From an uncultured Pseudomonadota bacterium (lineage in GTDB: Bacteria; Myxococcota_A; UBA796; JAFGLY01), in contig CALDOK010000195.1 in assembly GCA_937912125.1 (NCBI GenBank), positions 17,384 through 81,383 of the forward strand: a stretch of 64,000 bases of DNA. Direction: 5' to 3'. The notes beneath the pieces were generated by a model, which ran no database searches, was not told the origin of the DNA, and saw nothing but the letters and a program-made list of their open reading frames with translations. How positions within the stretch are numbered: the first letter of the stretch is position 1; each line of letters opens with the position of its first letter. The translations under genes and the position numbers were made by a program. Positions 27,873-50,281 of the stretch are shown in pieces.

Positions 27873-27954
27873 CAGGGCGACGTATCCGCCGTGGCGATCG
27901 AAGCACGCGGCGGCTAAGGTCGGGGCGTCATTCCACCTCGAGCGAGGTTCGTCC

Positions 27955-30719: not shown

Positions 30720-30775
30720 GCCCGCTCGCGCAGCCGCCCCTCGTCGCGTCACATCGAGCCGGCTAAGGGGACTTC

Positions 30776-31387
30776 ATGACCAAGCACCAGTCCGAAGCGG
30801 AGCGCCGCTCCCAGATCCTCGACGCCGCCCGCATCCTGTTCGTGGAGCAGGGCTTCCTGGCCGCCCGCGTCGAGGACATCGCGCGCAAGGCCGGCCTCTC
30901 CAAGGGGGCTGTGTACTTCTACTTCTCGTCCAAGAAGGCCATCTTCGAGGCCCTGGCGGAGCAGGAATACTCACGCACCATCACCTTCCTGCTTCAGGCC
31001 CAGGCGGCGCCCATCCCCGCCAGCCAGAAGCTCTTCATCATGGCGCGCCAATACCTCGACTACTTCTCGGGGCTCGAGGATCCCCCTCGCTTCTTCCTGC
31101 TGATGACCGAGATGGCCATCCGCGACGAGGCGATCCGCGAGAACGTCCAGGCCATCCACGAGCGCTACATCCAGGGCCTGGCCAGCATCATCTCCCAGGG
31201 CTGCGACGAAGGCATCTTCCGGCCGGTGGACGCCGAGTCCCTCTCCACCCTGCTCAAGGCGCTGATCGACGGGCTCTCCGGCCAGTCCGCCGCAGGGCTG
31301 CGGCCCGACGTCAAGCGCCTCAGCTCCGCCGGCATGGACATCATCCTCCACGGCTTGCTCACCAGTGGGGTTCCCTCCCGTGACTGA
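30776..31387 (+). CDS. TetR/AcrR family transcriptional regulator
   Basis: HTH region RSQILDAARILFVEQGFLAARVEDIARKAGLSKGAVYFYFSSKKAIF. Confidence 0.9.
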   Translation: MTKHQSEAERRSQILDAARILFVEQGFLAARVEDIARKAGLSKGAVYFYFSSKKAIFEALAEQEYSRTITFLLQAQAAPIPASQKLFIMARQYLDYFSGLEDPPRFFLLMTEMAIRDEAIRENVQAIHERYIQGLASIISQGCDEGIFRPVDAESLSTLLKALIDGLSGQSAAGLRPDVKRLSSAGMDIILHGLLTSGVPSRD

Positions 31388-31775
31388 CGTCGCTCCCATC
31401 CGCAACGCCACCCGGCACGCGCGCATGCGCTGGTTCGGCGTGGGCCTGTTCCTCGCGGGCGTGCTCGCCATCGGCGCCGCCCTCGCTGGCCTGCCCCTGG
31501 GGATCACCCGCGTCGGTGATGTGTTGGTGTGTCTGTTCGCCACGGGCTTGGGCCTGGGCACCTTTGGCAGCCACAACGACACCGCCCTCGCCTTGCTGCG
31601 CGACAACCGCTGGCACGAGGCGATCCCCCGGGCGCTCGGGCGTGAGATCGACGGCGAGGTGCTCTTCAACCGCCTGGATCTGTCCGAGCTCGAGGCCATC
31701 CCCAAGACCGCCTGGTTCCTCACGGTCGCGGCGCCGCTGGTCTTCGCCTGGGCCGTCTCGCGGCTCGTGTTATAG
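31365..31775 (+). CDS. Small membrane protein (3-4 TM), unknown function
   Basis: Overlaps the TetR 3' end (GTG 31365 or GTG 31380). Hydrophobic segments WFGVGLFLAGVLAIGAALAGL, VLVCLFATGLGLGTF, AWFLTVAAPLVFAWAV. Confidence 0.55.
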   Translation: MGFPPVTDVAPIRNATRHARMRWFGVGLFLAGVLAIGAALAGLPLGITRVGDVLVCLFATGLGLGTFGSHNDTALALLRDNRWHEAIPRALGREIDGEVLFNRLDLSELEAIPKTAWFLTVAAPLVFAWAVSRLVL

Positions 31776-31832
31776 GCGCGACACATCGCCTCTCGACTTT
31801 CTTCTTTCTTCCTCGACCAACAGGAGTTCACC

Positions 31833-32420
31833 GTGGCCATCCTCGACCTCTTCTCCAGCGTCGTCTCCCGCCCTGCGGGCCGCATCCTCGAGAGCTCCGT
31901 CCGCACCCTGGTCAACGATCTCATCCGCGACCACGACCTCGCCTCCGCCGCCGAGGTCGACAGCCTGCGTCGCAGCCTGCGGGATCTCGAGGGCCGCGCC
32001 GACCAGCTCCAGGCCAAGCTCGGCGCCGCCGAGGGCGAGGTGGCCGAGCTGCGCCAGGCCCTGACCAAGGCCGACCAGCAGCTGGCCGAAGCGCGCGAAG
32101 CCCTGGGCTCCGCCAGCGCCAAGCTCGCCACCCACAGCCACGACGAGCCTGCGGCCCCCGCCGCCGAGCAGCCCCTGCCCGAGGCCCGACCCGAGGCCCC
32201 CGCCACCCCCGAGGGCTGCCAGGTGCCCGGCTGCACCGCGAAGCACCGCTCCAAGGGCTTCTGCTCCAGCCACTACCAGCGCTGGCGGCGTGGCACCCTG
32301 GCTGGCTACGTCCTCACCGATGGCTCGGTCACCGTGGGCGAGAAGACCCGCAAGGTGGGCAAGAAGCTCGCCGGCAGGCCCTACCAGGTCGTGGACGGCA
32401 AGCCGGTGGTGGCCGAGTGA
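31833..32420 (+). CDS. Coiled-coil protein with C-terminal Cys/His zinc-ribbon-like motif
   Basis: AGGAG RBS 8 nt upstream of GTG 31833. Heptad-like region SLRRSLRDLEGRADQLQAKLGAAEGEVAELRQALTKADQQLAEAREAL. C-terminal CQVPGCTAKHRSKGFCSSHYQRWRRG. Confidence 0.6.
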   Translation: MAILDLFSSVVSRPAGRILESSVRTLVNDLIRDHDLASAAEVDSLRRSLRDLEGRADQLQAKLGAAEGEVAELRQALTKADQQLAEAREALGSASAKLATHSHDEPAAPAAEQPLPEARPEAPATPEGCQVPGCTAKHRSKGFCSSHYQRWRRGTLAGYVLTDGSVTVGEKTRKVGKKLAGRPYQVVDGKPVVAE

Positions 32421-32428
32421 CGATCTAG

Positions 32429-32448
32429 GGGCGGGCCTCAACCCGCCC
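32429..32448. terminator. GC hairpin (GGGCGGG-cctcaa-CCCGCCC) between convergent genes
   Basis: Read directly, 9 nt after the TGA at 32418-32420. No U-tract follows. Confidence 0.35.
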
Positions 32449-32549
32449 GCCGGGCCAACCCACGGGTGAGTTCACCCGATCACCCATGCGCTGCGGCGAC
32501 ACCTGCGGTCTCGAGCACGGGAGCCGCAGCGAGTGACCGAAGTGCTCGT

Positions 32550-33599
32550 TCAGTTCAACGGCTTCCACGCGCTGCGGGGAAACTCGGACGACGGAGGCGG
32601 CGCCTCGGCCGAGATGACGTAGTTCGCGCGACGGTTGGCCTGTTCGTCCGTCTCGTCCGGCGTAGAGACCGCCAGCGCCGACTCACCGAAGCCCTGGTAG
32701 TAGATGGGCCGGTCGAAGCCAGCGTCGCGGAACCACGCGGCGATGGCCTGGGCGCGATGCTGGCTCAGGACCTGGTTGCCCCCTGCGTCCCCTACGGTGT
32801 CGGTGTAGCCGCCCACGTAGAGGTTCATCTCGATCTGGGTGGCGGAGAAACGCTGGATGACCTCCCGCGCCTGACGCAGGGCGTCATCGAGCTTGGGCGC
32901 CTCGGCGGGCAGGACCTCCCACTTGGCGGTCTCGAAGACGAGGTCCTCATGGGGGATGTCATAGGACCACGGGAAGAGATCCACCCCGGCCCAGAAGCCG
33001 TCGCTGTCGAGCACCTTCACGTGGATACGGAGCACGTCGGTGCCAGGCTCGCTCCAGTCCAAGGAGATCGGGCTGCCCGGCGGCATGCCGCCCACGGGGG
33101 CGCTGCCGTACCCCACCATCTCCCCCGTCTCGCCATAGACCTCGACCTCGGCCTGCTCCACGCTCCGGTCGGCGGTGAGCACGAGGCTGCGGCCCTCCAG
33201 ACTCAGCTGCTCGCGAGGCACCAGGACCTGCATAGGAGGGAGCTGCTGCACCTCGAAGGACAGGGGCATGTCGCCGCTGTCTTCCCCGAAGGTGGCGGAG
33301 AGGGTGCCGCTGCAGGTGACGCGCCCCACCGGGATCTCGATGGGGATCGAGACCAGATCTCCGCTGCCCATGGCGCCGCTGTGGGAGACCTGAGTGCCGC
33401 CGCAGCGCAGCTTCACGGTGTACTGGTCCACGGGAACATAGCCGCGCAGGATCAGGGCGGGATGGGACGAGCCTTCCTGGCCCTTGGCCACGAGCTCCAA
33501 GGTGATGGGCTCGCCGTCCTGGGCGGTGGCCGGGGCCAGCAGCGCGAGGGGGAGCAGGGTACACACGAGCGCGAGCGCGGGGAGTCCGTTGCGGTCCAT
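32550..33599 (-). CDS. OmpA-family protein (secreted N-domain plus OmpA C-terminal peptidoglycan-binding domain)
   Basis: ATG 33599 lies within ORF 32550..33821: MDRNGLPALALVCTLLPLALLAPATA. C-terminal NLYVGGYTDTVGDAGGNQVLSQHRAQAIAAWF...RRANYV. Confidence 0.85.
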   Translation of the reverse strand: MDRNGLPALALVCTLLPLALLAPATAQDGEPITLELVAKGQEGSSHPALILRGYVPVDQYTVKLRCGGTQVSHSGAMGSGDLVSIPIEIPVGRVTCSGTLSATFGEDSGDMPLSFEVQQLPPMQVLVPREQLSLEGRSLVLTADRSVEQAEVEVYGETGEMVGYGSAPVGGMPPGSPISLDWSEPGTDVLRIHVKVLDSDGFWAGVDLFPWSYDIPHEDLVFETAKWEVLPAEAPKLDDALRQAREVIQRFSATQIEMNLYVGGYTDTVGDAGGNQVLSQHRAQAIAAWFRDAGFDRPIYYQGFGESALAVSTPDETDEQANRRANYVISAEAPPPSSEFPRSAWKPLN

Positions 33600-33815
33600 C
33601 GTTTGCCTCCGATTTGCCCCACCTAACCCTCCACTCGCCGGGCGGCGGCGGCCCCCATGGGCCCGACTCCGCGACAGCTTTGTCCCAGCGCCAGCCGCTC
33701 CGTGGGACATTCTGGGGGCATGCGCCCGGGCTCTGAGACCCATGGGTTGCCTCCAGGCTTGCGCTGCCTGCGCCATAATGACCGTTCTTCCACGCATGGC
33801 CCTCCAGCCACAGCC

Positions 33816-33831
33816 TGGCACGGGGTTTGCT
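33816..33831 (+). promoter_or_regulatory. Sigma-54 (-24/-12) promoter upstream of flp
   Basis: TGGCACG-gggt-TTGCT matches the consensus TGGCACG-N4-TTGCW exactly. The -12 GC lies 58 nt upstream of ATG 33888. Confidence 0.6.
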
Positions 33832-33887
33832 TACTGCTCTGGTGTCAACAGAGACCTCCCCCCCCCCATCCTCCCGAAGGAGACACC

Positions 33888-34094
33888 ATGAACGCCATCA
33901 CCCGTTTCGTCCGCGAAGAAGAAGGCCAGAGCACCGTCGAGTACATGCTGCTCATCTCCGTGATCGTCATCGCCATCGTCGCCGCCGCCTACATCTTCAT
34001 CCCGACCTTCCAGCAGGGCGTTCAGGCCCTCGCCGAAGACGTCAAGTCCATCCTGGACACCGGAAAGATCGGCAGCACCGGCACCACCCGCTAG
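33888..34094 (+). CDS. flp: Flp/Fap family type IVb pilin (68 aa)
   Basis: GAAGGAG RBS. MNAITRFVREEEG|QSTVEYMLLISVIVIAIVAAAYIF carries the Flp motif G-x-x-x-x-EY plus a hydrophobic helix. Confidence 0.85.
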   Translation: MNAITRFVREEEGQSTVEYMLLISVIVIAIVAAAYIFIPTFQQGVQALAEDVKSILDTGKIGSTGTTR

Positions 34095-34116
34095 ACTGCG
34101 CGTCTCCTTCGCAATC

Positions 34117-34144
34117 GCGGCAGCCCCGGCCCCGGGGCTGCCGC
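34117..34144 (+). terminator. Perfect 13-bp GC stem hairpin after flp
   Basis: GCGGCAGCCCCGG-cc-CCGGGGCTGCCGC, 23 nt after the flp TAG, followed by gttgtg (poor U-tract). Confidence 0.55.
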
Positions 34145-34207
34145 GTTGTGCATCTCGCGGCCCGCGGCAGCGTGATACCAGGCGCAGCACCACTCGCGAC
34201 CCGGACC

Positions 34208-34945
34208 ATGGCACCACTCCGCTGCACCAGTCTCCTGATCCTGGCTCTGCTGCCCAACGCCGCACACGCAGCCATCATCGGCAACCCCGTGGCCCGCCCC
34301 AGCGCCGGCTGGCTCGCCGTGGGGGTAGCGGCTGACGCCCAGGCTTCGGTCTACGACGCCCGAGACTGTGCGGGCGAGGCCTGCGAGGCCGTGTGGCGTC
34401 CATCGCAGATCGGGGGGCGCCTCGAGCTCGCGCTGCTCCCTGGCCTGGGCCTGCAGGGCGGCGGGGCCTGGATGCGCGAGACCATCAGCGAGGCCACCTA
34501 CGCCGGCCGGGGCGGCGCCTGGTGGGGCGGTGTAGAGGCCGCGATCCCCGTAGGCGACGAGATCCATATCGCCGCCGTGGGCCAGATCGAGCACAGCGCC
34601 ACCCGCGAGCAGGCCAGCGGGAGCACCGAGCTGCTGGGCCGCGCCATCACCACCAGCGTGCAGCTGGCCGGGCTGCTGGCCTGGGCTCCCGAGGATGACA
34701 GCTTCGCCCTGTACGGCGGCGTCGCGTTCGACCCGCTGCATCGGCAGTTCACCGCCCTGTACGACCTGGACGTCGAGCTCGAGCTCTACCCCGCCGCGCC
34801 CTTCGAGGGCGTCGTGGGCATGGAGCTGCGCTCTGGCCCCCTGGGGCTGCCCTGGGCCAGCTCCAGCGGCCACATGGTCGTAGGCATCGAAGCGCGCGTA
34901 GACCGAGGGCTCACTGGCGGCCTCTGGCTGGGCGTGGCGTACTGA
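34208..34945 (+). CDS. Predicted outer-membrane beta-barrel protein
   Basis: ATG 34208 lies within ORF 33827..34945. Signal peptide MAPLRCTSLLILALLPNAAHA, alternating strands, and a C-terminal ...GGLWLGVAY aromatic terminus. Confidence 0.6.
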   Translation: MAPLRCTSLLILALLPNAAHAAIIGNPVARPSAGWLAVGVAADAQASVYDARDCAGEACEAVWRPSQIGGRLELALLPGLGLQGGGAWMRETISEATYAGRGGAWWGGVEAAIPVGDEIHIAAVGQIEHSATREQASGSTELLGRAITTSVQLAGLLAWAPEDDSFALYGGVAFDPLHRQFTALYDLDVELELYPAAPFEGVVGMELRSGPLGLPWASSSGHMVVGIEARVDRGLTGGLWLGVAY

Positions 34946-34959
34946 CGCAGGCTGGGGAG

Positions 34960-38033
<3,074 letters not shown>

Positions 38034-38074
38034 CTAACCCCGTCGGGAGCCTGGAGCATGCCCCAGGCTACGAG

Positions 38075-38572
38075 GTGTGCGTGGAACCCAAGCGCGACCA
38101 GCTCAGCGAGCTCCTGGGCGAGCTCAGGCGGAAGCCGAAGTGCCACGACACCCGCGTCCAGGCTGCCCGCACCGCCCTGGCCCTGTGTTTTCGCGAGGGG
38201 GACCCTCACCTGGCCGACGTGGCCGAGTCCCTGGTCGTGGACGTCCCCCGCCTCACCCCGCGCGCCAAGCGGGCCGAGCTGGACAAGCTCGCCGCTCAGG
38301 CCACCGCCACCCGCCGGGCCGTGGCCATGGCCCACGGCCAGGCTCACGCTGATCCCTCGAGCCTGGCCGAGGCCCTCAGCAGCGACCCCGACCACCTGGC
38401 CGCCGAGGTCGAGCAGCGCCTGCTCGCCGACCAGCCATCCCTGGCCCGCGCAGTGCTCGAGGTCGGCCTGACTCGCCACCGCGAACACCCTCGGCTGCGG
38501 GAGCTGCAGCGCCGCTACCACGAGCGCTGGCCCTGCGGCGCCCCCTGCGCCAAGGCCGGCGCGGACAAGTAG
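38075..38572 (+). CDS. Hypothetical helical protein
   Basis: An ORF with coding-like composition. No motif recognised. Confidence 0.45.
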   Translation: MCVEPKRDQLSELLGELRRKPKCHDTRVQAARTALALCFREGDPHLADVAESLVVDVPRLTPRAKRAELDKLAAQATATRRAVAMAHGQAHADPSSLAEALSSDPDHLAAEVEQRLLADQPSLARAVLEVGLTRHREHPRLRELQRRYHERWPCGAPCAKAGADK

Positions 38573-38620
38573 CGATCCGCCCAGCACGCTCCCGCGGACA
38601 CCCTCTGTCCGAGCGTCTGC

Positions 38621-38649
38621 TTGACAGCCCCCGGTACCAACCGGATAAT
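38621..38649 (+). promoter_or_regulatory. Sigma-70-type promoter TTGACA-17-GATAAT upstream of rho
   Basis: TTGACA at 38621-38626, a 17-nt spacer, GATAAT at 38644-38649. Confidence 0.55.
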
Positions 38650-38711
38650 CTGGCCTCCCCGCCCCCACGTCCCCCCGCATACTCCCCTCCCCTCCCTCCT
38701 CGGCTCCCCCC
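38650..38711 (+). promoter_or_regulatory. C-rich, G-poor leader of rho (rut-like), no Shine-Dalgarno
   Basis: ctggcctccccgcccccacgtccccccgcatactcccctcccctccctcctcggctcccccc. I count 7 G in 62 nt, and most of the rest is C. Confidence 0.45.
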
Positions 38712-39980
38712 ATGGACATCGATCTCAACGACCTTAGATCGCGCACTACGGCGGAGCTGGTCAAGCTCGCACATCAAGCCTCCGTCGAGAAGGCCACCAG
38801 CCTGGGGCGCCAGGATCTCGTGTTCGAGATCCTCTGCGAGCGCATCCCCAAGGGGGCCCAGGTGCCCGGGGCGGGCGTGCTCGAGATCCTCCCGGATGGC
38901 TTCGGGTTCCTGCGCACACCCAGCGCCGGCTACCTGCCTGGTGCCGACGACATCTACGTCTCCCCCTCCCAGATCCGACGCTTCCACCTGCGCACGGGGG
39001 ACTACGTCGAGGGCCGCGTCCGCACCCCCAAGGAGAACGAGCGCTACATCGCGCTCATCAAGGTCGAGCAGGTCAACGGCTACGACCCCGAGCTCCAGGA
39101 CCGCCCCCTGCTGTTCGACAACCTGGTGGCCGAGCACCCATCCCAGCGGATGCTGCTCGAGCACGATCCCGCCGAGCACACCACCCGCTTGCTCGAGCTC
39201 CTGGCGCCCATGGGCCTGGGGCAGCGGGTGCTCGTCCACGGCGACGGCGGCGCCGATGTGCTGCTGCTCTACGCACACATCCTGGCCGGCATCCGGGCCA
39301 ACCACCCCGACGTCATCCCCTTCCTGCTGCTGGTTCAGGCCCGCCCCGAGGACGCCACCGCCGCCGAGGACCTCCCATGCGAGGTCGTGGCCACCACCTT
39401 CGACGAACCCGCCAACCGCCACACCCAGGCTTCCGAGATCGTAGGTGAGCGCGCCCGACGCCTGGCCGAAGCCGGCAAGCACGTCGTGGTGATGGTGCAC
39501 TCCCTCACCCGCCTGTGCCGCGCCTACGAAGAGCTGGCCGGCGGCACCGCCCGCCTGGGCGGCTCGGGCCTCGAGGGCAGCATCCTGGGCAAGCCTCGCC
39601 GGCTACTGGCCGACGCTCGCCGGCTGCGCGAAGGTGGATCCCTCACGGTTTTCGCCTCCCTCACCACGCCCACCAACTCCCGCCTCGATCAGGGCATCCT
39701 CGAGGTCTTCCAGGACACCTCCAAGGTCCGCATCACACTCGACAGCGCCCTCGCCCTGCCGGGTGTGGTTCCGGGCATCGATCCCCTGCGAACGGCCAAT
39801 GGCGGCGCACACCTCCTGCTCCCCGCCGCGCAGCTACGGGCTCATTCTCGCTTGCGCGCCGGCCTGGGCAGCAGCCCTCGCCAGGCCCTCACGATCCTCA
39901 CCAGCGCCCTCGAGTCCCACCTCGACAACGCCTCACTGCTCGATGCCGGGCTTGACAAGGCGACCGAAACGGGCGATTAG
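38712..39980 (+). CDS. rho: Transcription termination factor Rho homologue with degenerate ATPase motifs
   Basis: The N-terminal and RNA-binding domains are near-canonical (VLEILPDGFGFLR, DDIYVSPSQIRRFHLRTGD). The RecA-like half is recognisable (VVATTFDEPANRH, SLTRLCRAY, EGGSLT) but lacks Walker A Lys/Thr and Walker B Asp. Synteny is rho-rpmE-prfA-prmC. Confidence 0.85.
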   Translation: MDIDLNDLRSRTTAELVKLAHQASVEKATSLGRQDLVFEILCERIPKGAQVPGAGVLEILPDGFGFLRTPSAGYLPGADDIYVSPSQIRRFHLRTGDYVEGRVRTPKENERYIALIKVEQVNGYDPELQDRPLLFDNLVAEHPSQRMLLEHDPAEHTTRLLELLAPMGLGQRVLVHGDGGADVLLLYAHILAGIRANHPDVIPFLLLVQARPEDATAAEDLPCEVVATTFDEPANRHTQASEIVGERARRLAEAGKHVVVMVHSLTRLCRAYEELAGGTARLGGSGLEGSILGKPRRLLADARRLREGGSLTVFASLTTPTNSRLDQGILEVFQDTSKVRITLDSALALPGVVPGIDPLRTANGGAHLLLPAAQLRAHSRLRAGLGSSPRQALTILTSALESHLDNASLLDAGLDKATETGD

Positions 39981-40028
39981 GCGCGCCGCGTTTATCCATC
40001 TCCATCCGGACCGCCCGGAGGGCAGGCC

Positions 40029-40247
40029 ATGAAGCCCGATATCCATCCCAAGTACATCGAGTGCACCGTCACCTGTGTGTGCGGCAACTCTTTTGCGACT
40101 CGCTCGCTCAACCCCGAGATGAAGATCGAGATCTGCTCGGCTTGCCATCCCTTCTTCACTGGCAAGCAGAAGATCATCGACACCGCCGGCCGCGTCGAGC
40201 GGTTCATGCGCAAGTGGGGTTTGGCCGAGACCGAGCCGCCCGCGTAG
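40029..40247 (+). CDS. rpmE: 50S ribosomal protein L31 (Zn-binding type)
   Basis: MKPDIHPKY...CVCGNSF...[24 protein letters not shown]. Confidence 0.95.
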
Positions 40248-40273
40248 CCCACGCGCTCGTTTCGACTCTCTCG

Positions 40274-41323
40274 ATGCTCCACGCCCCCCCCCCTGAGGCA
40301 GCCCCCCGACCCTATGTCGGCGGGCAAGCCATCATCGAGGGGGTGTTCATGCGTGCGCCACGGGCGCTGGCCATGGCGGTGCGGCTGCCATCGGGCGAGA
40401 TCACCACTCAGGCCCAGCCCTACACGCCCTTCTTCCAGGGCTACAGGGTCTTCAAGCTCCCGTTCGTGCGGGGCGCCTTTGTGATGATCGATGCCCTGGT
40501 GGTGGGCATGAAGGCCCTGTCCTGGTCGGCGGAGCAAGCCGCCATCGAGGATGGCGGCGGGCCGCTGGACTCCCCCGCCGAGCGCCCCGAGCGGCCGCCG
40601 CTCAAGGACCGCTTGGCCCTGGGCGGCACCATGGCCTTCTCCCTGGTGCTGGGCATCGGTCTGTTCGTGGCCTTGCCGCACCTGCTCACCGACGGCCTGG
40701 GCTGGGCCACCGGCACGGCGCTGGACGTCGAAGGCGCAGCCTTCCACATCGTGGACGGCATCGTCAAGCTGGGGATCTTCCTGGCCTACATCGCGCTGAT
40801 TCGGCGTTCACCCGAGATCTTGCGGGTCTTCGCCTACCACGGCGCCGAGCACAAGACCATCTATGCCTACGAGGCTGGCCTCCCCCTCGAGCTCGAGCAC
40901 GTCCGCAAGCAGACCCGCTTCCACCCCCGCTGCGGCACCAGCTTCATCCTGTTCGTGGTGAGCATCTCCATCCTCGTCTTCGCGGTGGTCTTCCCCCTGC
41001 TGCCGCCGCTCCCCGTCGAGCATCGGCTGCTCAAGAACCTCGCGCAGGTGGCCATCAAGCTGCCCCTCACCCTCCCCGTGGCGGCGGTCAGCTACGAGAT
41101 CATCCGCGCCTCCAGCCGCTTCTACACCAAGGCCGCGGTCTTCCGCTGGCTGGCGCTGCCGGGCCTTGCGATGCAGCGGCTCACCACCGAAGAGCCGGAC
41201 GACGAGCAGCTCGCCGTGGCCATCGCGGCCCTCTCCAGCGCGCTGGCGGTGGAGCAGACTCTCGGGGGCAACGTTCTCGGGCTCGAGGGCGAGGTCTTCG
41301 AGCTGGGGGCACCCTCCTCCTGA
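40274..41323 (+). CDS. DUF1385-family membrane protein
   Basis: ATG 40274 lies within ORF 40061..41323. GGQAIIEGVFMR, the YHGAEHK signature, RFHPRCGTSF, and the conserved position between rpmE and prfA. Confidence 0.8.
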   Translation: MLHAPPPEAAPRPYVGGQAIIEGVFMRAPRALAMAVRLPSGEITTQAQPYTPFFQGYRVFKLPFVRGAFVMIDALVVGMKALSWSAEQAAIEDGGGPLDSPAERPERPPLKDRLALGGTMAFSLVLGIGLFVALPHLLTDGLGWATGTALDVEGAAFHIVDGIVKLGIFLAYIALIRRSPEILRVFAYHGAEHKTIYAYEAGLPLELEHVRKQTRFHPRCGTSFILFVVSISILVFAVVFPLLPPLPVEHRLLKNLAQVAIKLPLTLPVAAVSYEIIRASSRFYTKAAVFRWLALPGLAMQRLTTEEPDDEQLAVAIAALSSALAVEQTLGGNVLGLEGEVFELGAPSS

Positions 41324-41479
41324 CAGGACCGCGTTCTGCAGCCGCCTCCCAGGCGGCGCTATGACGCAGCGACGCAGGTGCCGGCTACACGAACGCTGCC
41401 GAGCGGGTCCACCCTGTCGGCTGCGCCCGCGTTAAGCACACAACCCCGTGTTCCGGGAAAGCTCACCCTGGAGAGACCG

Positions 41480-42568
41480 ATGTTCGACCGACTCAACGAG
41501 GTCCAGGCTCGCGCCGACGAGATCAACAGAAAGCTGAGCGACCCCGATGTAGCCCGTGACCACCGCCGCATGACCGAGCTGCACAAGGAACTGTCCAAGC
41601 TCGAGCCAGTGGTCGAGGTCTACATCGCCTGGAAGCAGAACAAGACGGAGCTGGCAGACGCCCGGCTCATGCTGGACGATCCCGAGATGCGCGACATGGC
41701 CCAGGAAGAGGTCGAGCTGCTCGAGGAGCAGCTCACCCAGTACGAGGCGCAGCTCAAGCTGCTGCTGCTGCCCAAGGACCCCTACGAAGGCCGCAACGTC
41801 ATCCTCGAGATCCGAGCCGGCACCGGGGGCGACGAAGCCGCCCTGTTCGCTGGCGATCTGTTCAGGATGTACAACTACTACTGCGAGCAGAACAAGCTCA
41901 AGTTCGAGGTCTTCTCGGCCCACGAGATCACCGTCGGGGGAGGCGGGGGTCGGTCGGCCTGCGGCTACAAGGAGATCCTCTGCAAGATCTCCGGCGAGGC
42001 GGCCTACACCCACCTGGCCTTCGAGGGTGGAACGCATCGTGTGCAGCGCGTCCCGCTCACCGAGACCCAGGGTCGCGTACACACCTCCGCGGCCACCGTG
42101 GCGGTGCTGCCCGAGGCCGAAGAGGTCGAGATCGACATCGCCCCCAACGAGCTTCGCATCGACGTGATGCGGGCCGGCGGCCCCGGAGGCCAGTCGGTCA
42201 ACACCACCGACTCCGCAGTGCGCATCGTCCACATCCCCACCAACATCACGGTCATCTGCCAAGACGAGAAGTCCCAGCACAAGAACAAGGCGCGGGCCAT
42301 GTCGGTGCTCTCGGCTCGCCTGCTCCAGAGAAAGCAAGACGAAGCCATGGCCGAGGTGACCGCTGCTCGGCGCTCCATGGTGGGCAGCGGCGATCGCTCA
42401 GAGAAGATCCGCACCTACAACTTTCCCCAGAACCGCGTCACGGATCATCGCATCAACCTCACCCTCTACAAGCTCGACCGCGTCATGAATGGCGACCTGA
42501 GCGAGCTGATCTCGGGGCTGCAGGCCAGCAACCAGGCGATGCTGCTCGCAGCTCAGGACGAAGGTTAG
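41480..42568 (+). CDS. prfA: Peptide chain release factor 1
   Basis: ATG 41480. [55 protein letters not shown] motif [24 protein letters not shown]. Confidence 0.95.
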
Positions 42569-42575
42569 CGCGGCC

Positions 42576-43430
42576 ATGGAAGACCTGGGCCGCATCCTGG
42601 CCCTGAGCGCCGACTTCCTCCGGGATCGCGGGGTGGCCAGCGCCAAGCTGGACGCCTCCCTGCTGGTGGGTCACGCCCTGGGCCTCACTCGGATGCAGGT
42701 CTATCTCCAGACGGATCGGCCCCTCGACCAAGCCGAGCTCGACGCCATCCGAGCCCTGCTGCGCCGCCGGGCAATGCGCGAGCCCCTGGCCTACATCACC
42801 GGCCACCGGGAGTTCATGAGCCTGGACTTCTCCCTGCTCCCGGGGCTGCTGGTGCCGCGGCCGGACAGCGAGCTCTTGGTCGAGGCCCTGCTCCGGCGGA
42901 TCCCCGCCGAGCGCGAGGAGCCCCTGTTCGTGGCGGACGTGGGCTGCGGCTCGGGCTGCCTGGGGCTGTCCCTGGCGCACGCCCGGGCCTGTGTGCGCGT
43001 CTACGCCGTGGACCGGTCCAGGCAGGCCCTGGCCTGCACCAAGGCCAACGCAATGGCCCTGGGCCTCGAGGGCCGCGTGGGGCTGCTGGAGGGCGATCTG
43101 CTGGCCCCAGTGCCCAGCGATCGTCCCATCGACTGGGTGCTGTCGAACCCGCCCTACATCCCCAGCGCGGAGCTGGAAGGGCTCGAGCCCGAGGTGGTCC
43201 GCTACGAGGACCGCGGCGCCTTGGACGGCGGCCCCGACGGGCTGGACATCATCCGCCGCCTGCTCCCTCAGGCCGCAGCCCGCGCGCGGGTGGGCATCGT
43301 GATGGAGCATGCCTGGCAGCAGGGCCCTGCCACCGTCGCGCTGGCCCTCGAGGCGGGGTTCGCTGCAGCCGAGACGTCAAAGGACCTGGCGGGGAAGGAC
43401 CGCTGCCTGCTGGCCGTTGTCGAAGCCTGA
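42576..43430 (+). CDS. prmC: Release-factor glutamine N5-methyltransferase
   Basis: REPLAYITGHREF, SAM motif VADVGCGSGCLG, catalytic NPPY (VLSNPPYIP). Confidence 0.9.
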   Translation: MEDLGRILALSADFLRDRGVASAKLDASLLVGHALGLTRMQVYLQTDRPLDQAELDAIRALLRRRAMREPLAYITGHREFMSLDFSLLPGLLVPRPDSELLVEALLRRIPAEREEPLFVADVGCGSGCLGLSLAHARACVRVYAVDRSRQALACTKANAMALGLEGRVGLLEGDLLAPVPSDRPIDWVLSNPPYIPSAELEGLEPEVVRYEDRGALDGGPDGLDIIRRLLPQAAARARVGIVMEHAWQQGPATVALALEAGFAAAETSKDLAGKDRCLLAVVEA

Positions 43431-44927
43431 TCAGACCGTCGCGATCTTGCCAGCACCCACCCACGGGACCTTGCCCAGCACCGAAGACTTGATGATCTCG
43501 GAGAACACCACCGCGCCCCCCATCATCTCCGTGAGCTCTTCCCGGCTCTCGGTCTTGGACAGCTTGCGCTTGAGCAGGTCGGGGCGCAGGTAGAAGCTGG
43601 CGTAGGCCTTGGTGCGCCACTTGCGCAGATCTTCGGCGCTGAATGTCTCGGTCTCGAGCTGAGGCAGCGTGCCGCCCCCGTTTCGGGTGTAGTCCAGCCA
43701 GGGATCGCCCGAGACGTACCCGCGTTCCCGGGAGATGTCGTACAGCTCGGTGGCAGGCAGGATGGTGGCCACGGAGAAGCTGGCCCAGTCCAGGCCCAGC
43801 TCGCAGGAGAAGTCGATGGTGGACTGCAGGTCGTGCACGGTGGCATCGGGGTAGCCCAGCATGAAGTAGCCGCGCGTCTCGATGCCCGCCTCGCGGGCGA
43901 TGCGGAAGGCCCGCTCGCACATCTCGCGGGTGATGCCCTTGTTCATGATCTTGAGCATGCGGTCCGTGCCCGCCTCGACCCCCATGTGGATGGAGCGCAG
44001 GCCCGCAGCCTTGAGCGCCTCGAGCACCTCGCGGTCCACCGTGTCCACCCGGGCGCGGATGTTGAAGCGAACCTTCAGGTCGCGACGCAACACCTCCTCG
44101 GCGAAGCGCAGCATACGCTGCTTGCCGATGGTGAAGGTCTCGTCGAACATGACGATCTCGCGGATGCCCCAGGTCTTCTCGAGCCAGGCCATCTCCTCGA
44201 CCACCGCGTCGATGGAGCGGAAGCGGAGCTTCTCGGAGTAGACCTGCGAGCAGTAGCCGCAGTGCCAGGGGCAGCCCCGGGAGGTGACCATGGTGGCCAT
44301 GGGCTTCAGCACCGTGAGGCAGTGGTAGCGCTCCATGGGCATCAGATCGAAGGCGCTGAACGGGAAACGATCCAGGTCGTGGACAACGGGCCGGGGCGGG
44401 TTGAGCACCACCTCGCCGCCTGGTCGGCGGGACGCCGTGCCCGGCACGTCCCAGGGCTCGTCGCCGTGCTCGAGGCGCTCGCAGATCTCGAGCAGGGTGT
44501 CTTCGCCATCGCCCACGGCGGTGATGTCGATGCACTCCCAGACCAGCGACTCGGTGGGGTAGATGGTCATGTGGGGACCGCCCACCACCACCAGGGCCTT
44601 GGGGATCACGCTCCGCACCAGCTGCGCGATCTGCAACACCGCCGGCCAGCCCAGGGTCTTGCAGGTGAGCGCGACGATCCGGGGGTCGTACTCCCGCAGG
44701 CTGTCGGCGGCCTGCTCGACCAGCACGTTCTCGGCGTGCAGATCGATCATGGCCACCGGGAAGCCGTTCTGGCGCAGCCACGAAGCCAGGCCCCCGAGGG
44801 AGAGGCTGGGGTAGATGCCCATCTTCTCCGCGGCCTTCTGGGACAGAGGCTGCTGATCGGCGGCCTCGTGGTACTTCACGAAGAGCACGCGGGTGCGCTT
44901 GGTGCCGGGGCTGTGTTTGCCGAGCAT
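43431..44927 (-). CDS. B12-binding-domain radical SAM enzyme (class B) no. 2
   Basis: IVALTCKT...VVGGPHMT...AVGDGE; rSAM TSRGCPWHCGYCS (CX3CX2C). Its stop is back-to-back with the prmC stop (TGATCA). Confidence 0.85.
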   Translation of the reverse strand: MLGKHSPGTKRTRVLFVKYHEAADQQPLSQKAAEKMGIYPSLSLGGLASWLRQNGFPVAMIDLHAENVLVEQAADSLREYDPRIVALTCKTLGWPAVLQIAQLVRSVIPKALVVVGGPHMTIYPTESLVWECIDITAVGDGEDTLLEICERLEHGDEPWDVPGTASRRPGGEVVLNPPRPVVHDLDRFPFSAFDLMPMERYHCLTVLKPMATMVTSRGCPWHCGYCSQVYSEKLRFRSIDAVVEEMAWLEKTWGIREIVMFDETFTIGKQRMLRFAEEVLRRDLKVRFNIRARVDTVDREVLEALKAAGLRSIHMGVEAGTDRMLKIMNKGITREMCERAFRIAREAGIETRGYFMLGYPDATVHDLQSTIDFSCELGLDWASFSVATILPATELYDISRERGYVSGDPWLDYTRNGGGTLPQLETETFSAEDLRKWRTKAYASFYLRPDLLKRKLSKTESREELTEMMGGAVVFSEIIKSSVLGKVPWVGAGKIATV

Positions 44928-45139
44928 GGGTCACGGGGGCTGAGGGAGGGCCCAATGTAGCACCGCGAACCCGCGCGGGGTGTCCGCCAGGCTACCGAGA
45001 CCGGGGCCCGCCGGAGGGTCGGCAGACTCCGCCCTGCAGGCAAGCATGATATGAGTGCACCACAGTCCGGGGGCCAGCGGTCCTTGCGCCGTCCTTCCCC
45101 CTGGGACCCTCCCCACCTCATCTCCTCGCTGGAGTGTCC

Positions 45140-46954
45140 ATGTCGAGTGCTTCCTACAAGTCCGTGGTCGAGATGTTCCGCGACCGTGTGAGCTCCACGC
45201 CTGATGCCCAGGCCATGCTCTTCAAGCGCGCTGGCGCGTGGACCCACATCGACTGGCGCGACACGGGCAAGCGGGTGCACGACGTGGCCTGCGGCCTGGT
45301 GGCCCTGGGGCTCGAGAGCGAGCAGCGCTGCTCCATCCTGGCCAAGACCATGCCCGACTGGATCGTGGCGGACATCGGCATCCTCACCGCCGCCTGCGCC
45401 ACCACCACCATCTACCCCTCGAACACCGCCGAGGAGTGCGCCTACATCATCCAGGACTCCGGCACCCGGCTGGTCTTCGTCGAGAACGCCGAGCAAGCTG
45501 ACAAGCTCCGCGGCGTCAAGGACCAGCTCCCCGAGGTGATCAAGCTGATCACCTTCACCGACGGCGCCGACGGCGACTGGGTCATCAGCCTGGACGACCT
45601 GATGGAGCTCGGCCGTGCCTGGGACCAGGAGAACCCTGGCAAGATCGTCGAGATCGGCGACTCCATCGAGCCCGACCACCTGGCCACCATCATCTACACC
45701 TCGGGCACCACGGGCAAGCCCAAGGGCGTCATGCTCACCCACGACTGCTGGGTGTACGAAGGCGAGGCCATCGACAACCTCGACATCCTGCTGCCCTCCG
45801 ACAAGCAGTACCTCTTCCTGCCCCTGGCCCACAGCTTCGCCAAGGTCATGGAGCTCTGCTTCATCCGCATGGGCATCCCCACCGTGGTCGACGGCGACAC
45901 CGATGTGATGGTCAAGCAGCTGGCCGAGACCAACCCCACCTTCATGACCTGCGTGCCCCGCATCTTCGAGAAGGTCTACAACAAGGTGGTCGAGAACGCC
46001 AAAGCCGGCGGCAAGGTCAAGTGGGCCATCTTCCAGTGGGCCCTGAGCGTGGGTCGGCAGGTCAGCAGCCTGCGCCAGCAGCGCAAGGAGCCCTCGGGGC
46101 TGCTGGCTCTGAAGTACAGGCTGGCCGACAAGCTGGTCTTCCACAAGATCAAGGCCCTCTTCGGCGGCCGCATGCGCTTCTTCATCTCCGGCGGCGCCCC
46201 GCTGTCCAAGGAGATCGCCGAGTTCTTCCACGCCGCCGACATCCTGATCCTCGAGGGCTACGGCCTCACCGAGTCCTCGGCCGCCAGCTTCGTCAACAAG
46301 CCCGAGAGCTTCAAGTTCGGCACCGTGGGCCCCACCCTGCCCGGCACCCAGGTCAAGATCGACGACGACGGCGAGATCCTGCTCAAGGGCCGCGGCGTGA
46401 TGCGCGGCTACTACCAGCGCCCCGCCGACACCGCCGAGGTCTTCACCGAGGACGGCTGGTTCCGCACTGGCGACATCGGCAAGGTCGACGGTGACGGCTT
46501 CCTGGCCATCACCGACCGCAAGAAGGACATCATCGTCACCGCGGGCGGCAAGAACGTGGCCCCCCAGAACATCGAGAACTTGCTCAAGGCTCGCAGCCCC
46601 TACGTGTCCCAGATCGTGGTCCACGGCGACAAGCGCAACTACTGCTCGGCGTTGATCACCATCAACGAAGAGTCCGTCGGCAAGTGGGCCACGGAGCAGG
46701 AGATCACCTTCAGCGGCTACGCCGACCTCGCCTCCAAGCCCCAGGTCAAGCAGCTGATCCAGGCCGCGATCGACGGCATCAACTCCGAGCTGGCCTCCTA
46801 CGAGAGCATCAAGAAGTTTCAGATCCTGGACCACGACTTCACCATCGAGTCCGGCGAGCTGACCCCCAAGATGTCCATCAAGCGCAAGGTGGTCGAGAAC
46901 AACCACCGCGAGATCCTCGACGCCTTCTACCAGGGCACCATCGAGCAGATCTAG
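45140..46954 (+). CDS. Long-chain acyl-CoA synthetase (AMP-forming)
   Basis: AMP-binding motif IIYTSGTTGKPKGVMLTH, GYGLTES, TGDIGKVDGDGFLAITDRKKDII, KKFQILD...LTPKMSIKR. ATG 45140 (GGAG 6 nt upstream); the track start is GTG 45134. Confidence 0.9.
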   Translation: MSSASYKSVVEMFRDRVSSTPDAQAMLFKRAGAWTHIDWRDTGKRVHDVACGLVALGLESEQRCSILAKTMPDWIVADIGILTAACATTTIYPSNTAEECAYIIQDSGTRLVFVENAEQADKLRGVKDQLPEVIKLITFTDGADGDWVISLDDLMELGRAWDQENPGKIVEIGDSIEPDHLATIIYTSGTTGKPKGVMLTHDCWVYEGEAIDNLDILLPSDKQYLFLPLAHSFAKVMELCFIRMGIPTVVDGDTDVMVKQLAETNPTFMTCVPRIFEKVYNKVVENAKAGGKVKWAIFQWALSVGRQVSSLRQQRKEPSGLLALKYRLADKLVFHKIKALFGGRMRFFISGGAPLSKEIAEFFHAADILILEGYGLTESSAASFVNKPESFKFGTVGPTLPGTQVKIDDDGEILLKGRGVMRGYYQRPADTAEVFTEDGWFRTGDIGKVDGDGFLAITDRKKDIIVTAGGKNVAPQNIENLLKARSPYVSQIVVHGDKRNYCSALITINEESVGKWATEQEITFSGYADLASKPQVKQLIQAAIDGINSELASYESIKKFQILDHDFTIESGELTPKMSIKRKVVENNHREILDAFYQGTIEQI

Positions 46955-46956
46955 CC

Positions 46957-47517
46957 ATGGGCGCCTCCGATCTGAGCCCCGAGGAGCACCTGGCGGCGGT
47001 CTTGGCCCACGTGGGCTTCGACACCGACCCCGAGTGCGCGGCCACCCCCGCAGCCTTCCTCGGCTTGCTGCGGGGACTCGACCCCCGCCGGGCGGCTCCG
47101 GGCATCACGCTCATCGACGCCCAGTCCACGGATCCCCTCATCCTCCGTGAGGTGCCCTTCCAGTCCCTGTGCGCCCACCACCTGGTGCCGTTCCTGGGCC
47201 ACGCCTGCATCGGGCTGCGGCCGGCGGGGCGGCTGGCGGGCCTGGGCAGCATCGTGCGGCTGCTTCACCACCACGCGCTGCGTCCCCAGGTGCAGGAGCG
47301 GCTGGGTGCCACCCTGGCCGATGACCTCATCCTGCGCCTGGACGCTCGCTCGGTGTTCGTACACCTCAGCGCCCGTCACCTGTGCCTGGAGATGCGGGGC
47401 GCGCGCACGCCAGCCCTGGTCCAGACCCTGGCCTGGCGCGGCGAGGACGATCCCGATCTGCGGGCGCTGCTGGGGGAACCAGCCTCCACGCCCGAGCAGG
47501 GGCCACCGCCCCGGTGA
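46957..47517 (+). CDS. folE: GTP cyclohydrolase I (type 1)
   Basis: ATG 46957 lies 2 nt after the ligase stop. FQSLCAHHLVPF, PQVQERLG, SARHLCLEMRG (Zn ligands Cys/His/Cys). Confidence 0.85.
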   Translation: MGASDLSPEEHLAAVLAHVGFDTDPECAATPAAFLGLLRGLDPRRAAPGITLIDAQSTDPLILREVPFQSLCAHHLVPFLGHACIGLRPAGRLAGLGSIVRLLHHHALRPQVQERLGATLADDLILRLDARSVFVHLSARHLCLEMRGARTPALVQTLAWRGEDDPDLRALLGEPASTPEQGPPPR

Positions 47518-49521: not shown

Positions 49522-49606
49522 GACTCACCTCCTGGTCGAGGAGCGCTGCTCCCCGCGATCACACGCCTTCATAGCGGGTTGGGGCGCGCCCTGCATCGGC
49601 TGGGGG

Positions 49607-50278: not shown

Positions 50279-50281
50279 GGA

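What the first reader, a model, noticed from the sequence alone, without database searches (positions are those of the whole stretch)
38712..39980. The Rho gene in the canonical rho-rpmE-prfA-prmC locus keeps its RNA-binding domain but has lost every ATPase catalytic signature
The N-terminal half aligns almost residue for residue with E. coli Rho (VLEILPDGFGFLR, DDIYVSPSQIRRFHLRTGD, PKENERYIALIKV). In the RecA-type half the scaffold is still recognisable (GLGQR, ANHPD, VVATTFDEPANRH, SLTRLCRAY, EGGSLT), but the catalytic positions are replaced. Walker A APPKAGKT reads HGDGGADV, with no Lys or Thr. The catalytic-Glu segment LLIDERPEEV reads LLVQARPEDA. Walker B ILLDSITR reads VMVHSLTR (Asp to His). 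The arginine-finger and sensor segments EKRVFPAID and SGTRKEELL read ALPGVVPGID and TANGGAHLL. I translated the other two frames across ~39225-39260 and neither restores GKT or GKS, so a single indel artefact does not explain it. A hexamer that binds C-rich RNA but presumably cannot hydrolyse ATP or translocate would be a pseudo-enzyme. It could act as an RNA chaperone or roadblock, as a partner or regulator of a second active Rho, or be a relic. I am not aware of a described inactive Rho occupying the orthologous locus.
Basis: partly seen in the sequence, partly recalled or inferred. Interest (0 to 1): 0.8.

Follow-up and report, generated by a model that had tools for sequence, protein, structure and literature searches.

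The report
Motor-dead Rho termination factor ortholog
In an uncultured, high-GC, Myxococcota-like lineage, the gene at the normal rho position encodes a well-conserved Rho protein that keeps its RNA-binding head and ring fold but has lost every residue needed to burn ATP, so it is a natural test of what Rho can do without its motor.

Summary
ORF 38712..39980 (+) encodes a 422-aa protein that aligns without gaps to E. coli Rho and is predicted to adopt the full Rho fold (pLDDT 91; TM about 0.9 to Rho structures). The catalytic residues are replaced: K181G, K184V, T185L, D210Q, E211A, D265H, R353G and R366G. This is not an artefact or a relic. At least 14 protein clusters from independent assemblies share the state. 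dN/dS of the ATPase-like half is far below 1 (0.29-0.33 by NG86, 0.05-0.09 by ML), similar to the neighbouring prfA and prmC and lower than ligA. The RNA-binding half is the most constrained segment in the neighbourhood. Synteny (ligA / small ORF / rho / rpmE / DUF1385 / prfA / prmC) matches a sister genome that has a canonical rho, so this gene is the positional ortholog. A PrfA tree suggests one ancestral inactivation followed by further erosion. A conserved near-consensus promoter and an unstructured, almost G-free C-rich leader precede both the dead and the canonical genes, which points to retained RNA-binding autoregulation. I could not determine whether a second, active Rho exists elsewhere in these genomes; no close paralog was found. 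A brief precedent exists in a paper supplement (Thermoleophilia/Rubrobacteria 'Rho-like' proteins). Verdict: a new variant of a known kind, of fairly high interest.

The parts
38621..38649 (+). Near-consensus sigma-70-type promoter, TTGACA-17 nt-GATAAT (11 of 12)
   Evidence: 1 site found in 10 kb against 0.3 expected. The hexamers are the invariant columns in the alignment of rho upstream regions from six related genomes. The same 11/12 promoter precedes the canonical rho in L011.
38650..38711 (+). C-rich, almost G-free, unstructured 5' leader running up to the ATG, with no Shine-Dalgarno; rut-like
   Evidence: GC skew is -0.48. The last 100 nt have C=55 and G=16, the 4th most extreme of 6390 windows. 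It is the only tract in the 64 kb with C>=30 and G<=8 per 60 nt. MFE is -4 kcal/mol over 80 nt with an open centroid. It is conserved upstream of rho* in L002, L003, L004 and L007, and upstream of the canonical rho in L011.
38712..39980 (+). rho* ORF, 422 aa: Rho ortholog without ATPase catalytic residues
38730..38834 (+). Rho_N helical domain (residues 7-41)
   Evidence: Pfam PF07498 scores 24.6 bits, just under the 24.9 cut-off. Helices 5-44 are modelled with pLDDT above 86.
38871..39092 (+). Rho RNA-binding OB fold (residues 54-127) with an intact primary binding site (DGFGFLR, DDIYVSPSQIRRF, ERY)
   Evidence: PF07497 at 3e-34. F64, F66, R68, Y82, E110, R111 and Y112 are invariant in alignment A1. 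50 of 53 universally conserved N-terminal positions are kept. dN/dS is 0.05-0.09 by NG86 and 0.01-0.03 by ML.
39186..39791 (+). RecA/ATP-synt_ab-type domain (residues 159-360): fold kept, active site lost
   Evidence: PF00006 scores 52.9 bits, above the 29.5 cut-off. Foldseek gives TM 0.86-0.92 to Rho structures. Of 143 universally conserved positions in the C-terminal half (E. coli 127-419), 49 are kept, 22 switched to a new conserved residue and 72 became variable.
39240..39263 (+). Walker A equivalent, GDGGADVL (E. coli APPKAGKT)
   Evidence: The loop is variable and acidic within the clade (GDVGADV, ADPAAEV, ADASCDV, SSARAGC, APPGSEG ...).
39330..39353 (+). Catalytic-Glu segment, LVQARPED (E. 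coli LIDERPEE): D210Q, E211A, R212 kept
39489..39506 (+). Walker B equivalent, VMVHSL (E. coli ILLDSI): D265H; the His is invariant in the core clade
39537..39575 (+). Q-loop equivalent, AGGTARLGGSGLE: K283R is invariant, the rest is remodelled; the only low-confidence internal stretch of the model
39669..39689 (+). R-loop equivalent, PTNSRLD: a basic residue (R/K) is mostly kept at position 326
39753..39782 (+). R353 segment, ALPGVVPGID (E. coli AEKRVFPAID): R353G, invariant in the clade
39792..39818 (+). Arg-finger segment, TANGGAHLL (E. coli SGTRKEELL): R366G
40029..40247 (+). rpmE (ribosomal protein L31), a synteny anchor
40274..41323 (+). DUF1385 gene, a synteny anchor
41480..42568 (+). 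prfA (release factor 1), a synteny anchor and the species-tree proxy
42576..43430 (+). prmC, a synteny anchor
35751..37982 (-). ligA (NAD-dependent DNA ligase), the upstream synteny anchor
38081..38572 (+). Lineage-specific conserved ORF (~163 aa, no known family) between ligA and rho*

Best explanation
This is the positional ortholog of rho, and it has become a pseudo-ATPase. It keeps the Rho_N/OB-fold head that captures C-rich single-stranded RNA. It also keeps the RecA-type body that in Rho builds the ring, but the nucleotide site has been erased. Purifying selection acts on both halves, so the protein does a job that needs RNA binding and the scaffold but not ATP-driven translocation.

The most likely mode of action is as follows. 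Rho* assembles like Rho and binds naked, pyrimidine-rich nascent RNA through its primary sites. One of its targets is its own conserved C-rich leader next to the start codon, which would give autoregulation by occupancy rather than by termination. It then acts without a motor, either as a factor associated with the elongation complex that promotes pausing or inactivation (the 'EC-dependent' branch of Rho action), or as a passive RNA-shielding or roadblock protein.

Shown here: loss of all catalytic residues, a retained fold, an intact primary RNA site, purifying selection, orthology, lineage-wide distribution, and a conserved promoter and leader. Inferred: absence of ATP binding or hydrolysis, ring formation, RNA targets, autoregulation, and any effect on RNA polymerase.
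For: Motif loss on a gapless alignment. The P-loop equivalent is variable and acidic within the clade, so it is not under selection as a phosphate-binding loop. The full Rho fold is predicted with pLDDT 91.3 and pTM 0.90, and TM 0.86-0.92 to Rho structures. Of the universally conserved positions, 50 of 53 are kept in the N-terminal half but only 49 of 143 in the C-terminal half, where 22 more are fixed to new residues. For the closest genome pairs, NG86 dN/dS is 0.05-0.09 for the NTD and 0.29-0.33 for the CTD, against prfA 0.19-0.23, prmC 0.28-0.29, DUF1385 0.22-0.29 and ligA 0.41. The ML codon model gives 0.012-0.027 for the NTD and 0.05-0.09 for the CTD. Within the core clade the protein is as conserved as PrfA (about 83-84%) and far more conserved than LigA (about 60%). 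The ligA-ORF-rho-rpmE-(DUF1385)-prfA-prmC-radical SAM synteny is shared with the sister genome L011, which carries a canonical rho. On a PrfA tree all genomes of one clade carry degenerate forms, with further loss (D265, the APPR backbone, R366) towards the core clade. A promoter and an unstructured C-rich leader are conserved before both dead and canonical genes, and the leader is unique in the 64 kb. The literature accepts an EC-dependent pathway in which Rho stalls RNA polymerase before engaging the transcript (PMC11018626).
Against: No biochemistry exists; ATP binding, ring formation and RNA binding are all inferred from sequence and a monomer model. To my knowledge, E. coli Rho mutants at K184, E211 or D265 do not terminate, so a motor-independent termination role has no direct precedent. 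The C-rich leader could simply be a translation-initiation element without a Shine-Dalgarno sequence, inherited from the ancestor. The Q-loop is remodelled and modelled with low confidence, so central-channel RNA binding may be lost. Whether the genomes also encode an active Rho is unknown. The PrfA tree is neighbour-joining without support values, and the Rho-PrfA links rest on matching contig lengths.
Confidence: 0.6

Rival explanations
1. Rho* is the non-catalytic subunit or regulator of a second, active Rho encoded elsewhere in the genome. It would form mixed rings, as the alpha and B subunits do with the beta and A subunits in F1/V1 ATPases, or titrate RNA and RNA polymerase sites.
For: Rho belongs to the same ATP-synt_ab superfamily, in which catalytic and non-catalytic paralogs alternate. 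Two rho genes occur in 116 of 2730 genomes, and hetero-hexamers have been suggested (PMC11347177). The conserved C-terminal scaffold would suit ring incorporation.
Against: There is no second rho in the 64 kb window. The gene sits at the ancestral rho locus. Searching with the lineage's canonical Rho (P0020) found only about 12 close clusters. Every one with an identifiable contig lies beside a PrfA only 60-63% identical to the window's, so it belongs to a sister genome, and no accession falls in the ranges of the two known Rho* MAGs. A horizontally acquired, distant paralog is not excluded, and whole genomes could not be searched.
Confidence: 0.15
2. Rho* is a decaying relic (pseudogene in progress) with no function, in a lineage that has dispensed with Rho.
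For: Rho has been lost repeatedly, for example in Cyanobacteriota, Mycoplasmatota, many Bacillota and Haliangium ochraceum among the Myxococcota (PMC11347177). Half of the universal positions in the C-terminal half have become variable.
Against: The 400-422-aa ORF is intact in 14 or more diverged clusters. dN/dS is far below 1 in both halves and comparable to prfA and prmC. 22 C-terminal positions are fixed to new residues. A strong promoter is conserved. The model is confident.
Confidence: 0.03
3. Rho* is still an NTPase or translocase that uses a non-canonical active site.
For: Some pseudoenzymes have 'migrated' catalytic residues (PMC10211241 abstract). His263 (at D265) and Gly351 (at R353) are invariant, and R212 is mostly kept.
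Against: The P-loop equivalent has no Lys, Arg, Ser or Thr in register, carries Asp or Glu, and varies between close relatives. The positions of E211 and R366 are also variable. No alternative conserved GK[ST] motif occurs anywhere in the protein.
Confidence: 0.05
4. The motif loss is a sequencing, assembly or frameshift artefact.
For: The sources are metagenome assemblies.
Against: A separately stored ENA metagenome contig is nearly identical (3 of 1266 nt differ). Dozens of contigs from ENA, JGI and NCBI give the same states. The alignment is gapless through all motifs.
Confidence: 0.01

Closest known systems
Canonical transcription termination factor Rho (E. coli Rho; PDB 1PV4, 3ICE, 8Q3P; TIGR00767/PRK09376)
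   Same: It has the same three-domain architecture, length and predicted fold (TM about 0.9), the same primary RNA-binding residues, the same genomic position as the rho of a sister genome, and the same kind of promoter and C-rich leader.
   Different: It lacks Walker A K184/T185, the catalytic E211, Walker B D265, R353 and the Arg finger R366. Its ATPase core is only 36-41% identical to canonical Rho, whereas canonical Rho proteins are 69-79% identical to each other across phyla. It scores below the TIGR00767 equivalog cut-off.
'Rho-like N-terminal + RNA-binding' proteins of Thermoleophilia/Rubrobacteria (Conexibacter woesei, Baekduia soli), described in the Moreira et al. 2024 supplement
   Same: These are also full-length proteins (449-472 aa) with a conserved RNA-binding domain and Val/Ala in place of the catalytic Glu, and they were judged unable to translocate.
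   Different: They come from a different phylum and therefore an independent origin. They carry an RxR insertion in the N-terminal region and are said to lack the Q and R loops. No selection, synteny or Walker A/B analysis was reported, and they were dismissed as 'probably not functional'. Here basic residues remain at the Q- and R-loop positions 283 and 326, and purifying selection is demonstrated. I did not compare the sequences directly.
Non-catalytic subunits of rotary ATPases (F1 alpha, V1 B)
   Same: They belong to the same ATP-synt_ab/RecA superfamily, and their ring subunits keep the fold while having lost catalysis.
   Different: Those subunits work in obligate alternation with a catalytic paralog, and F1 alpha still binds nucleotide. 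No partner paralog was found here, and the P-loop is destroyed rather than merely non-catalytic.
Mycobacterium tuberculosis Rho (PDB 7OQH)
   Same: It is a Rho with naturally weakened enzymatic activity that was once proposed to act independently of its motor (abstracts of PMC4499133 and PMC8828861).
   Different: MtbRho keeps all catalytic motifs and was shown to be ATP-dependent. Rho* lacks the motifs altogether.

Membership tests
Transcription termination factor Rho | Rho RNA-binding OB-fold domain with primary-site residues (F62, F64, R66, Y80, E108, Y110 in E. coli numbering) | tested here: met
   PF07497 at 3e-34. The equivalent residues F64, F66, R68, Y82, E110 and Y112 are invariant.
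Transcription termination factor Rho | Rho_N helical domain | tested here: inconclusive
   PF07498 scores 24.6 bits against a 24.9 cut-off. The helices are modelled confidently and superpose on Rho.
Transcription termination factor Rho | RecA-type ATP-synt_ab domain fold | tested here: met
   PF00006 scores 52.9 bits, above 29.5. Foldseek TM is 0.86-0.92 over about 415 columns.
Transcription termination factor Rho | Walker A P-loop GxxxxGK[TS] (K181, K184, T185) | tested here: not met
   It reads GDGGADVL, with K181G, K184V and T185L.
Transcription termination factor Rho | Catalytic Glu211 and Walker B Asp265 | tested here: not met
   E211A (with D210Q) and D265H.
Transcription termination factor Rho | Arg finger R366 and R353 | tested here: not met
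   R366G and R353G.
Transcription termination factor Rho | Secondary RNA-binding site (Q-loop K283/T286, R-loop K326) | tested here: inconclusive
   K283R is invariant and position 326 is R or K in most members, but the rest of the Q-loop is remodelled, T286 is variable and the model has pLDDT about 59 there.
Transcription termination factor Rho | Score above the curated equivalog thresholds | tested here: inconclusive
   PRK09376 scores 347 against a 315 cut-off (pass). TIGR00767 scores 342 against 509 (fail).
Transcription termination factor Rho | Orthologous genomic position | tested here: met
   The ligA-ORF-rho-rpmE-prfA-prmC-radical SAM synteny is shared with L011, which carries a canonical rho.
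Transcription termination factor Rho | RNA-dependent ATPase/translocase activity and hexamer formation | not testable with these tools
   This needs purified protein or a multimer prediction; only a monomer model was possible.
Pseudoenzyme (catalytically dead homolog kept by selection) | The fold of an enzyme family, loss of the catalytic motifs, and evolutionary conservation | tested here: met
   Fold, motif loss, and dN/dS far below 1 at a level comparable to essential neighbouring genes.
Actinomycetota 'Rho-like N-terminal + RNA-binding' group (Moreira et al. 2024) | Actinobacterial origin with an RxR-containing N-terminal insertion and loss of the Q/R loops | tested here: not met
   Rho* has no insertion, is 422 aa long and aligns end to end with E. 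coli Rho. Its lineage groups with Myxococcota-labelled MAGs by PrfA. It shares only the loss of the catalytic Glu.
Non-catalytic ring subunit paired with a catalytic paralog (F1 alpha / V1 B type) | Co-occurrence with a catalytic paralog in the same genome | not testable with these tools
   Whole genomes were not searchable after the single genome scan. There is none in the window, and no close paralog is in the protein database.

The most novel reading that the evidence does not exclude
Rho* is the only Rho in these genomes and still controls transcription without ATP. It would sense naked C-rich nascent RNA and act on RNA polymerase through the EC-dependent, translocation-independent route, or purely by occupancy. 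That would make it a natural separation-of-function variant showing that the Rho ring has a biologically selected activity independent of its motor.
Probability: 0.25. Interest if true: 0.85.

Novelty: new variant of a known kind. Interest (0 to 1): 0.66.

Why it matters
Rho is a textbook ring-shaped RNA motor. Surveys report its ATPase domain as highly conserved among functional Rho factors, and proteins without it have been set aside as non-functional (PMC11347177). This lineage has kept a full-length, motor-dead Rho at the ancestral locus under selection as strong as that on release factor 1, together with its ancestral promoter and rut-like leader. It is therefore a natural experiment for a long-running question: how much of Rho's action on RNA and RNA polymerase is independent of translocation, in other words the RNA-dependent versus EC-dependent pathways. 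The graded series (GRT P-loop, then loss of Glu211 and Lys184, then loss of Asp265 and the Arg finger) also documents, step by step, how an essential motor turns into a pseudoenzyme. The protein is small and could be expressed from synthetic DNA, so the key tests are feasible even though the organisms are uncultured.

Tried and rejected
(1) I looked for a second rho. tblastn of the window found none. P0016, the best-scoring hit outside the clade with an intact P-loop, turned out to be an unrelated Rho with trxA upstream and an internal duplication that looks like an assembly chimera. My last homolog search, with the lineage's canonical Rho P0020, found only sister-genome orthologs. The question remains open.

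(2) Taxonomy. There are no rRNA, tRNA or Rfam features in the window. The NCBI labels are inconsistent (Enterobacterales, Pseudomonadota, Delta- and Alphaproteobacteria). PrfA places the lineage nearest to Myxococcota-labelled MAGs at about 60% identity.

(3) The PMC version of Moreira et al. holds no supplement; the bioRxiv version does. It does not say whether Haliangium ochraceum has a degenerate Rho-like protein.

Pfam and NCBIfam give no match.

(5) The YN00 dN/dS method failed numerically, so I used NG86 and ML.

(6) The intrinsic-terminator scan around the locus found nothing above expectation.

(7) The upstream ORF is not homologous to the B3_4-domain ORF at the same position in the canonical-Rho genome.
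Full report
**1. The observation**

The ORF at 38712..39980 (+) is real and uninterrupted, at 422 aa. Pfam detects Rho_RNA_bind (3e-34), the RecA-type ATP-synt_ab domain (4.9e-14) and a marginal Rho_N. NCBIfam's PRK09376 Rho model passes (347 bits against a 315 cut-off), but the stricter TIGR00767 equivalog fails (342 against 509).

phmmer against PDB aligns residues 4-376 to E. coli Rho with no gap in any motif. In E. coli numbering the residues read K181G, K184V, T185L, D210Q, E211A, R212 kept, D265H, K283R, K326R, R353G, R366G and E368A. Neither point changes the conclusion.

rpmE, DUF1385, prfA and prmC follow the gene, and ligA lies upstream on the other strand.

**2. Not an artefact and not unique to this sequence**

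A separately stored ENA metagenome contig differs from the window at 3 of 1266 nt. The homolog search found a tight clade, P0001-P0015, at 53-100% identity. It comes from ENA, JGI and NCBI metagenomes and MAGs. Below it, identity falls to 48% or less for ordinary Rho proteins. All clade members lack the P-loop Lys/Thr, Glu211 and R353; all but P0015 also lack Asp265, and all but P0013/P0014 lack the Arg finger R366.

An exhaustive profile search of 1.84 billion representatives puts the whole clade in a single 50%-identity cluster with only a few neighbours. Only four GTDB species representatives carry it, and all are MAGs.

**3. Fold**

AlphaFold2 gives pLDDT 91.3 and pTM 0.90. Only the Q-loop region and the C-terminal tail are uncertain. 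All top Foldseek hits are Rho structures, with TM 0.86-0.92.

**4. Selection**

For the closest genome pairs (dS about 0.5), NG86 dN/dS values are:
- rho* N-terminal half: 0.05-0.09
- rho* C-terminal half: 0.29-0.33 (0.20-0.26 for its core)
- prfA: 0.19-0.23
- prmC: 0.28-0.29
- DUF1385: 0.22-0.29
- ligA: 0.41

A maximum-likelihood codon model gives 0.012-0.027 for the N-terminal half and 0.05-0.09 for the C-terminal half. The motif-less domain is therefore constrained about as strongly as bona fide essential enzymes, though 3-6 times less than the RNA-binding head.

I also took the positions that are at least 95% conserved in 92 canonical Rho proteins. The N-terminal half keeps 50 of 53. The C-terminal half keeps 49 of 143, fixes 22 to new residues (D265H, A271C, N275E, K283R, R353G and others), and lets 72 vary. 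The variable set includes most former active-site positions.

The usual Rho pattern, with the ATPase core more conserved than the head, is inverted here. The core is 36-41% identical to canonical Rho, against 69-79% among canonical Rho proteins from different phyla.

**5. Orthology and history**

The gene order ligA(-) / small ORF / rho* / rpmE / DUF1385 / prfA / prmC / ... / B12-radical SAM(-) recurs in P0015 and P0017, and partly in P0018. It also recurs around the canonical rho of P0020 in GCA_020632795.1. Rho* is therefore the positional ortholog of an ordinary rho.

Intermediate states exist:
- a GRT or GRS P-loop only (P0021, P0027, P0031, P0037)
- a GRT P-loop with Glu211 also lost (P0023, P0048)
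- no P-loop Lys and no Glu211, but Asp265 kept (P0018, P0019, P0036, P0017, P0015)
- everything lost (the core clade)

I used PrfA as a species proxy and linked each PrfA to its Rho by shared contig length. On that tree, the core clade, P0015, P0017 and P0018/P0019 form one clade in which every known Rho is degenerate. The sister group holds the canonical forms plus what look like independent partial losses. This fits one ancestral inactivation followed by erosion of the now-useless site. The tree is neighbour-joining without support values, so this is indicative only.

**6. Regulatory context outside the reported coordinates**

A near-consensus promoter, TTGACA-17-GATAAT, lies at 38621-38649; 1 site was found against 0.3 expected. 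It is followed by a leader of about 60 nt that is almost G-free and pyrimidine-rich, and that runs into the ATG with no Shine-Dalgarno sequence.

This leader is the only such tract in the 64 kb and is predicted to be unstructured. The promoter hexamers and the C-rich leader are conserved before rho* in related genomes, and also before the canonical rho of the sister genome.

From my own knowledge, E. coli rho is autoregulated through Rho-dependent attenuation in its leader. The simplest reading is that an ancestral rut-type autoregulatory leader has been kept, and that Rho* still recognises it through its intact primary site.

**7. Mechanism**

I commit to the following. Rho* is a pseudo-ATPase that still binds C-rich single-stranded RNA and still uses its RecA-like body as a scaffold. 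The scaffold probably forms a ring and may retain a basic central channel through R283 and R326. The protein acts without translocation.

Current models allow Rho to associate with elongation complexes and, together with NusA and NusG, to stall RNA polymerase before it engages the transcript (PMC11018626). A motor-less Rho could retain that branch, or could act purely by occupancy on RNA, including its own leader. These steps are inferred, not shown.

**8. Rival explanations**

- *Partner of a second, active Rho.* This remains possible but has no support. There is none in the window. The few close relatives of the lineage's canonical Rho all map to sister genomes.
- *Relic.* This is refuted by the selection results.
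- *Non-canonical ATPase.* This is unlikely, because the P-loop equivalent is acidic and varies among close relatives.
- *Artefact.* This is refuted by the independent assemblies.

**9. Comparison with what is known**

The largest survey of Rho diversity found the ATPase domain highly conserved among functional Rho factors (PMC11347177). It listed Haliangium ochraceum (Myxococcota) as lacking a functional Rho.

Its supplement briefly describes full-length 'Rho-like' proteins in Thermoleophilia/Rubrobacteria with Val/Ala at the catalytic Glu and no Q/R loops, and it regards them as probably non-functional. That is the closest precedent.

The present case is an independent origin in a different lineage. 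It is more extreme, since Walker A, Walker B and both arginines are also gone. It comes with evidence for orthology, purifying selection and retained regulatory signals. I found no paper that treats a natural motor-dead Rho as a functional protein.

**10. Verdict**

The pseudo-enzyme interpretation is supported, and 'relic' is rejected. 'Partner of a second Rho' is untested. The novelty is real but not absolute: this is a new variant of a known kind. I score interest at about 0.66.

Noticed in passing
window 38081..38572 (+); L002 9391-9861, L003 7697-8164, L004 9425-9877, L007 7333-7815, L009 7265-7753: A conserved ORF of about 160 aa with no Pfam or NCBIfam match lies between ligA and rho* (motifs GDPHxADVAE, RRAVAMAH, LARAVLEV). 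It occurs in every genome of the degenerate-Rho clade for which I had upstream DNA, at 42-65% identity and dN/dS about 0.39. It is absent from the flanks of the canonical-Rho sister genome, where an unrelated B3_4-domain ORF sits instead, and from L010. It could be a lineage-specific partner or simply a neighbour.
   Followed up: partly
window 38621..38711 (+); L011 7928-8000: A near-consensus sigma-70 promoter and an unstructured C-rich leader with no Shine-Dalgarno sequence lie upstream of rho*. They are conserved across the lineage, including the genome with a canonical rho, and the leader is the only such tract in the 64 kb.
   Followed up: yes
proteins P0408-P0416 (sister-lineage contigs, for example 42788 bp and 8955 bp, that also carry prfA): Several Myxococcota-labelled sister genomes have a short-form canonical Rho (364-385 aa) that lacks the Rho_N domain but keeps all catalytic motifs.
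   Followed up: partly
proteins P0021, P0027, P0031, P0037, P0128, P0146/P0395, P0177, P0217, P0222, P0239: Other metagenomic Rho representatives show partial active-site loss. Examples are Walker A Lys to Arg (GRT/GRS), Glu211 to Ala, and loss of the Arg finger. P0146 looks like an independent loss of 4 of the 5 core residues in the sister group. Some with 'DARPE' may correspond to the Thermoleophilia-type Rho-like proteins.
   Followed up: partly
proteins P0016 (L006 10001-11635), P0403, P0404, P0407: These Rho proteins of 544-701 aa appear to contain a duplicated stretch of the ATPase domain. In P0016 two P-loop/DERPEE segments follow each other. They are most likely chimeric metagenome assemblies rather than real fusions.
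   Followed up: no
loci L001-L004, L009, L011 (record titles): The NCBI organism labels for this one lineage are inconsistent: 'uncultured Enterobacterales', 'Pseudomonadota', 'Deltaproteobacteria' and 'Alphaproteobacteria bacterium'. The 70% GC content, the delta-type rho-rpmE-DUF1385-prfA gene order and the PrfA similarity all point to a Myxococcota-related uncultured group.
   Followed up: partly
window 43431..44927 (-): A B12-binding radical SAM gene downstream of prmC is part of the conserved synteny block in all related genomes, including the canonical-Rho one. Its function is unknown.
   Followed up: no
window 1..64000: There are no tRNA genes and no Rfam family hits at gathering threshold anywhere in the 64 kb. 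Long spurious antisense ORFs, for example 36462..38471 opposite ligA, are typical of 70% GC DNA.
   Followed up: no
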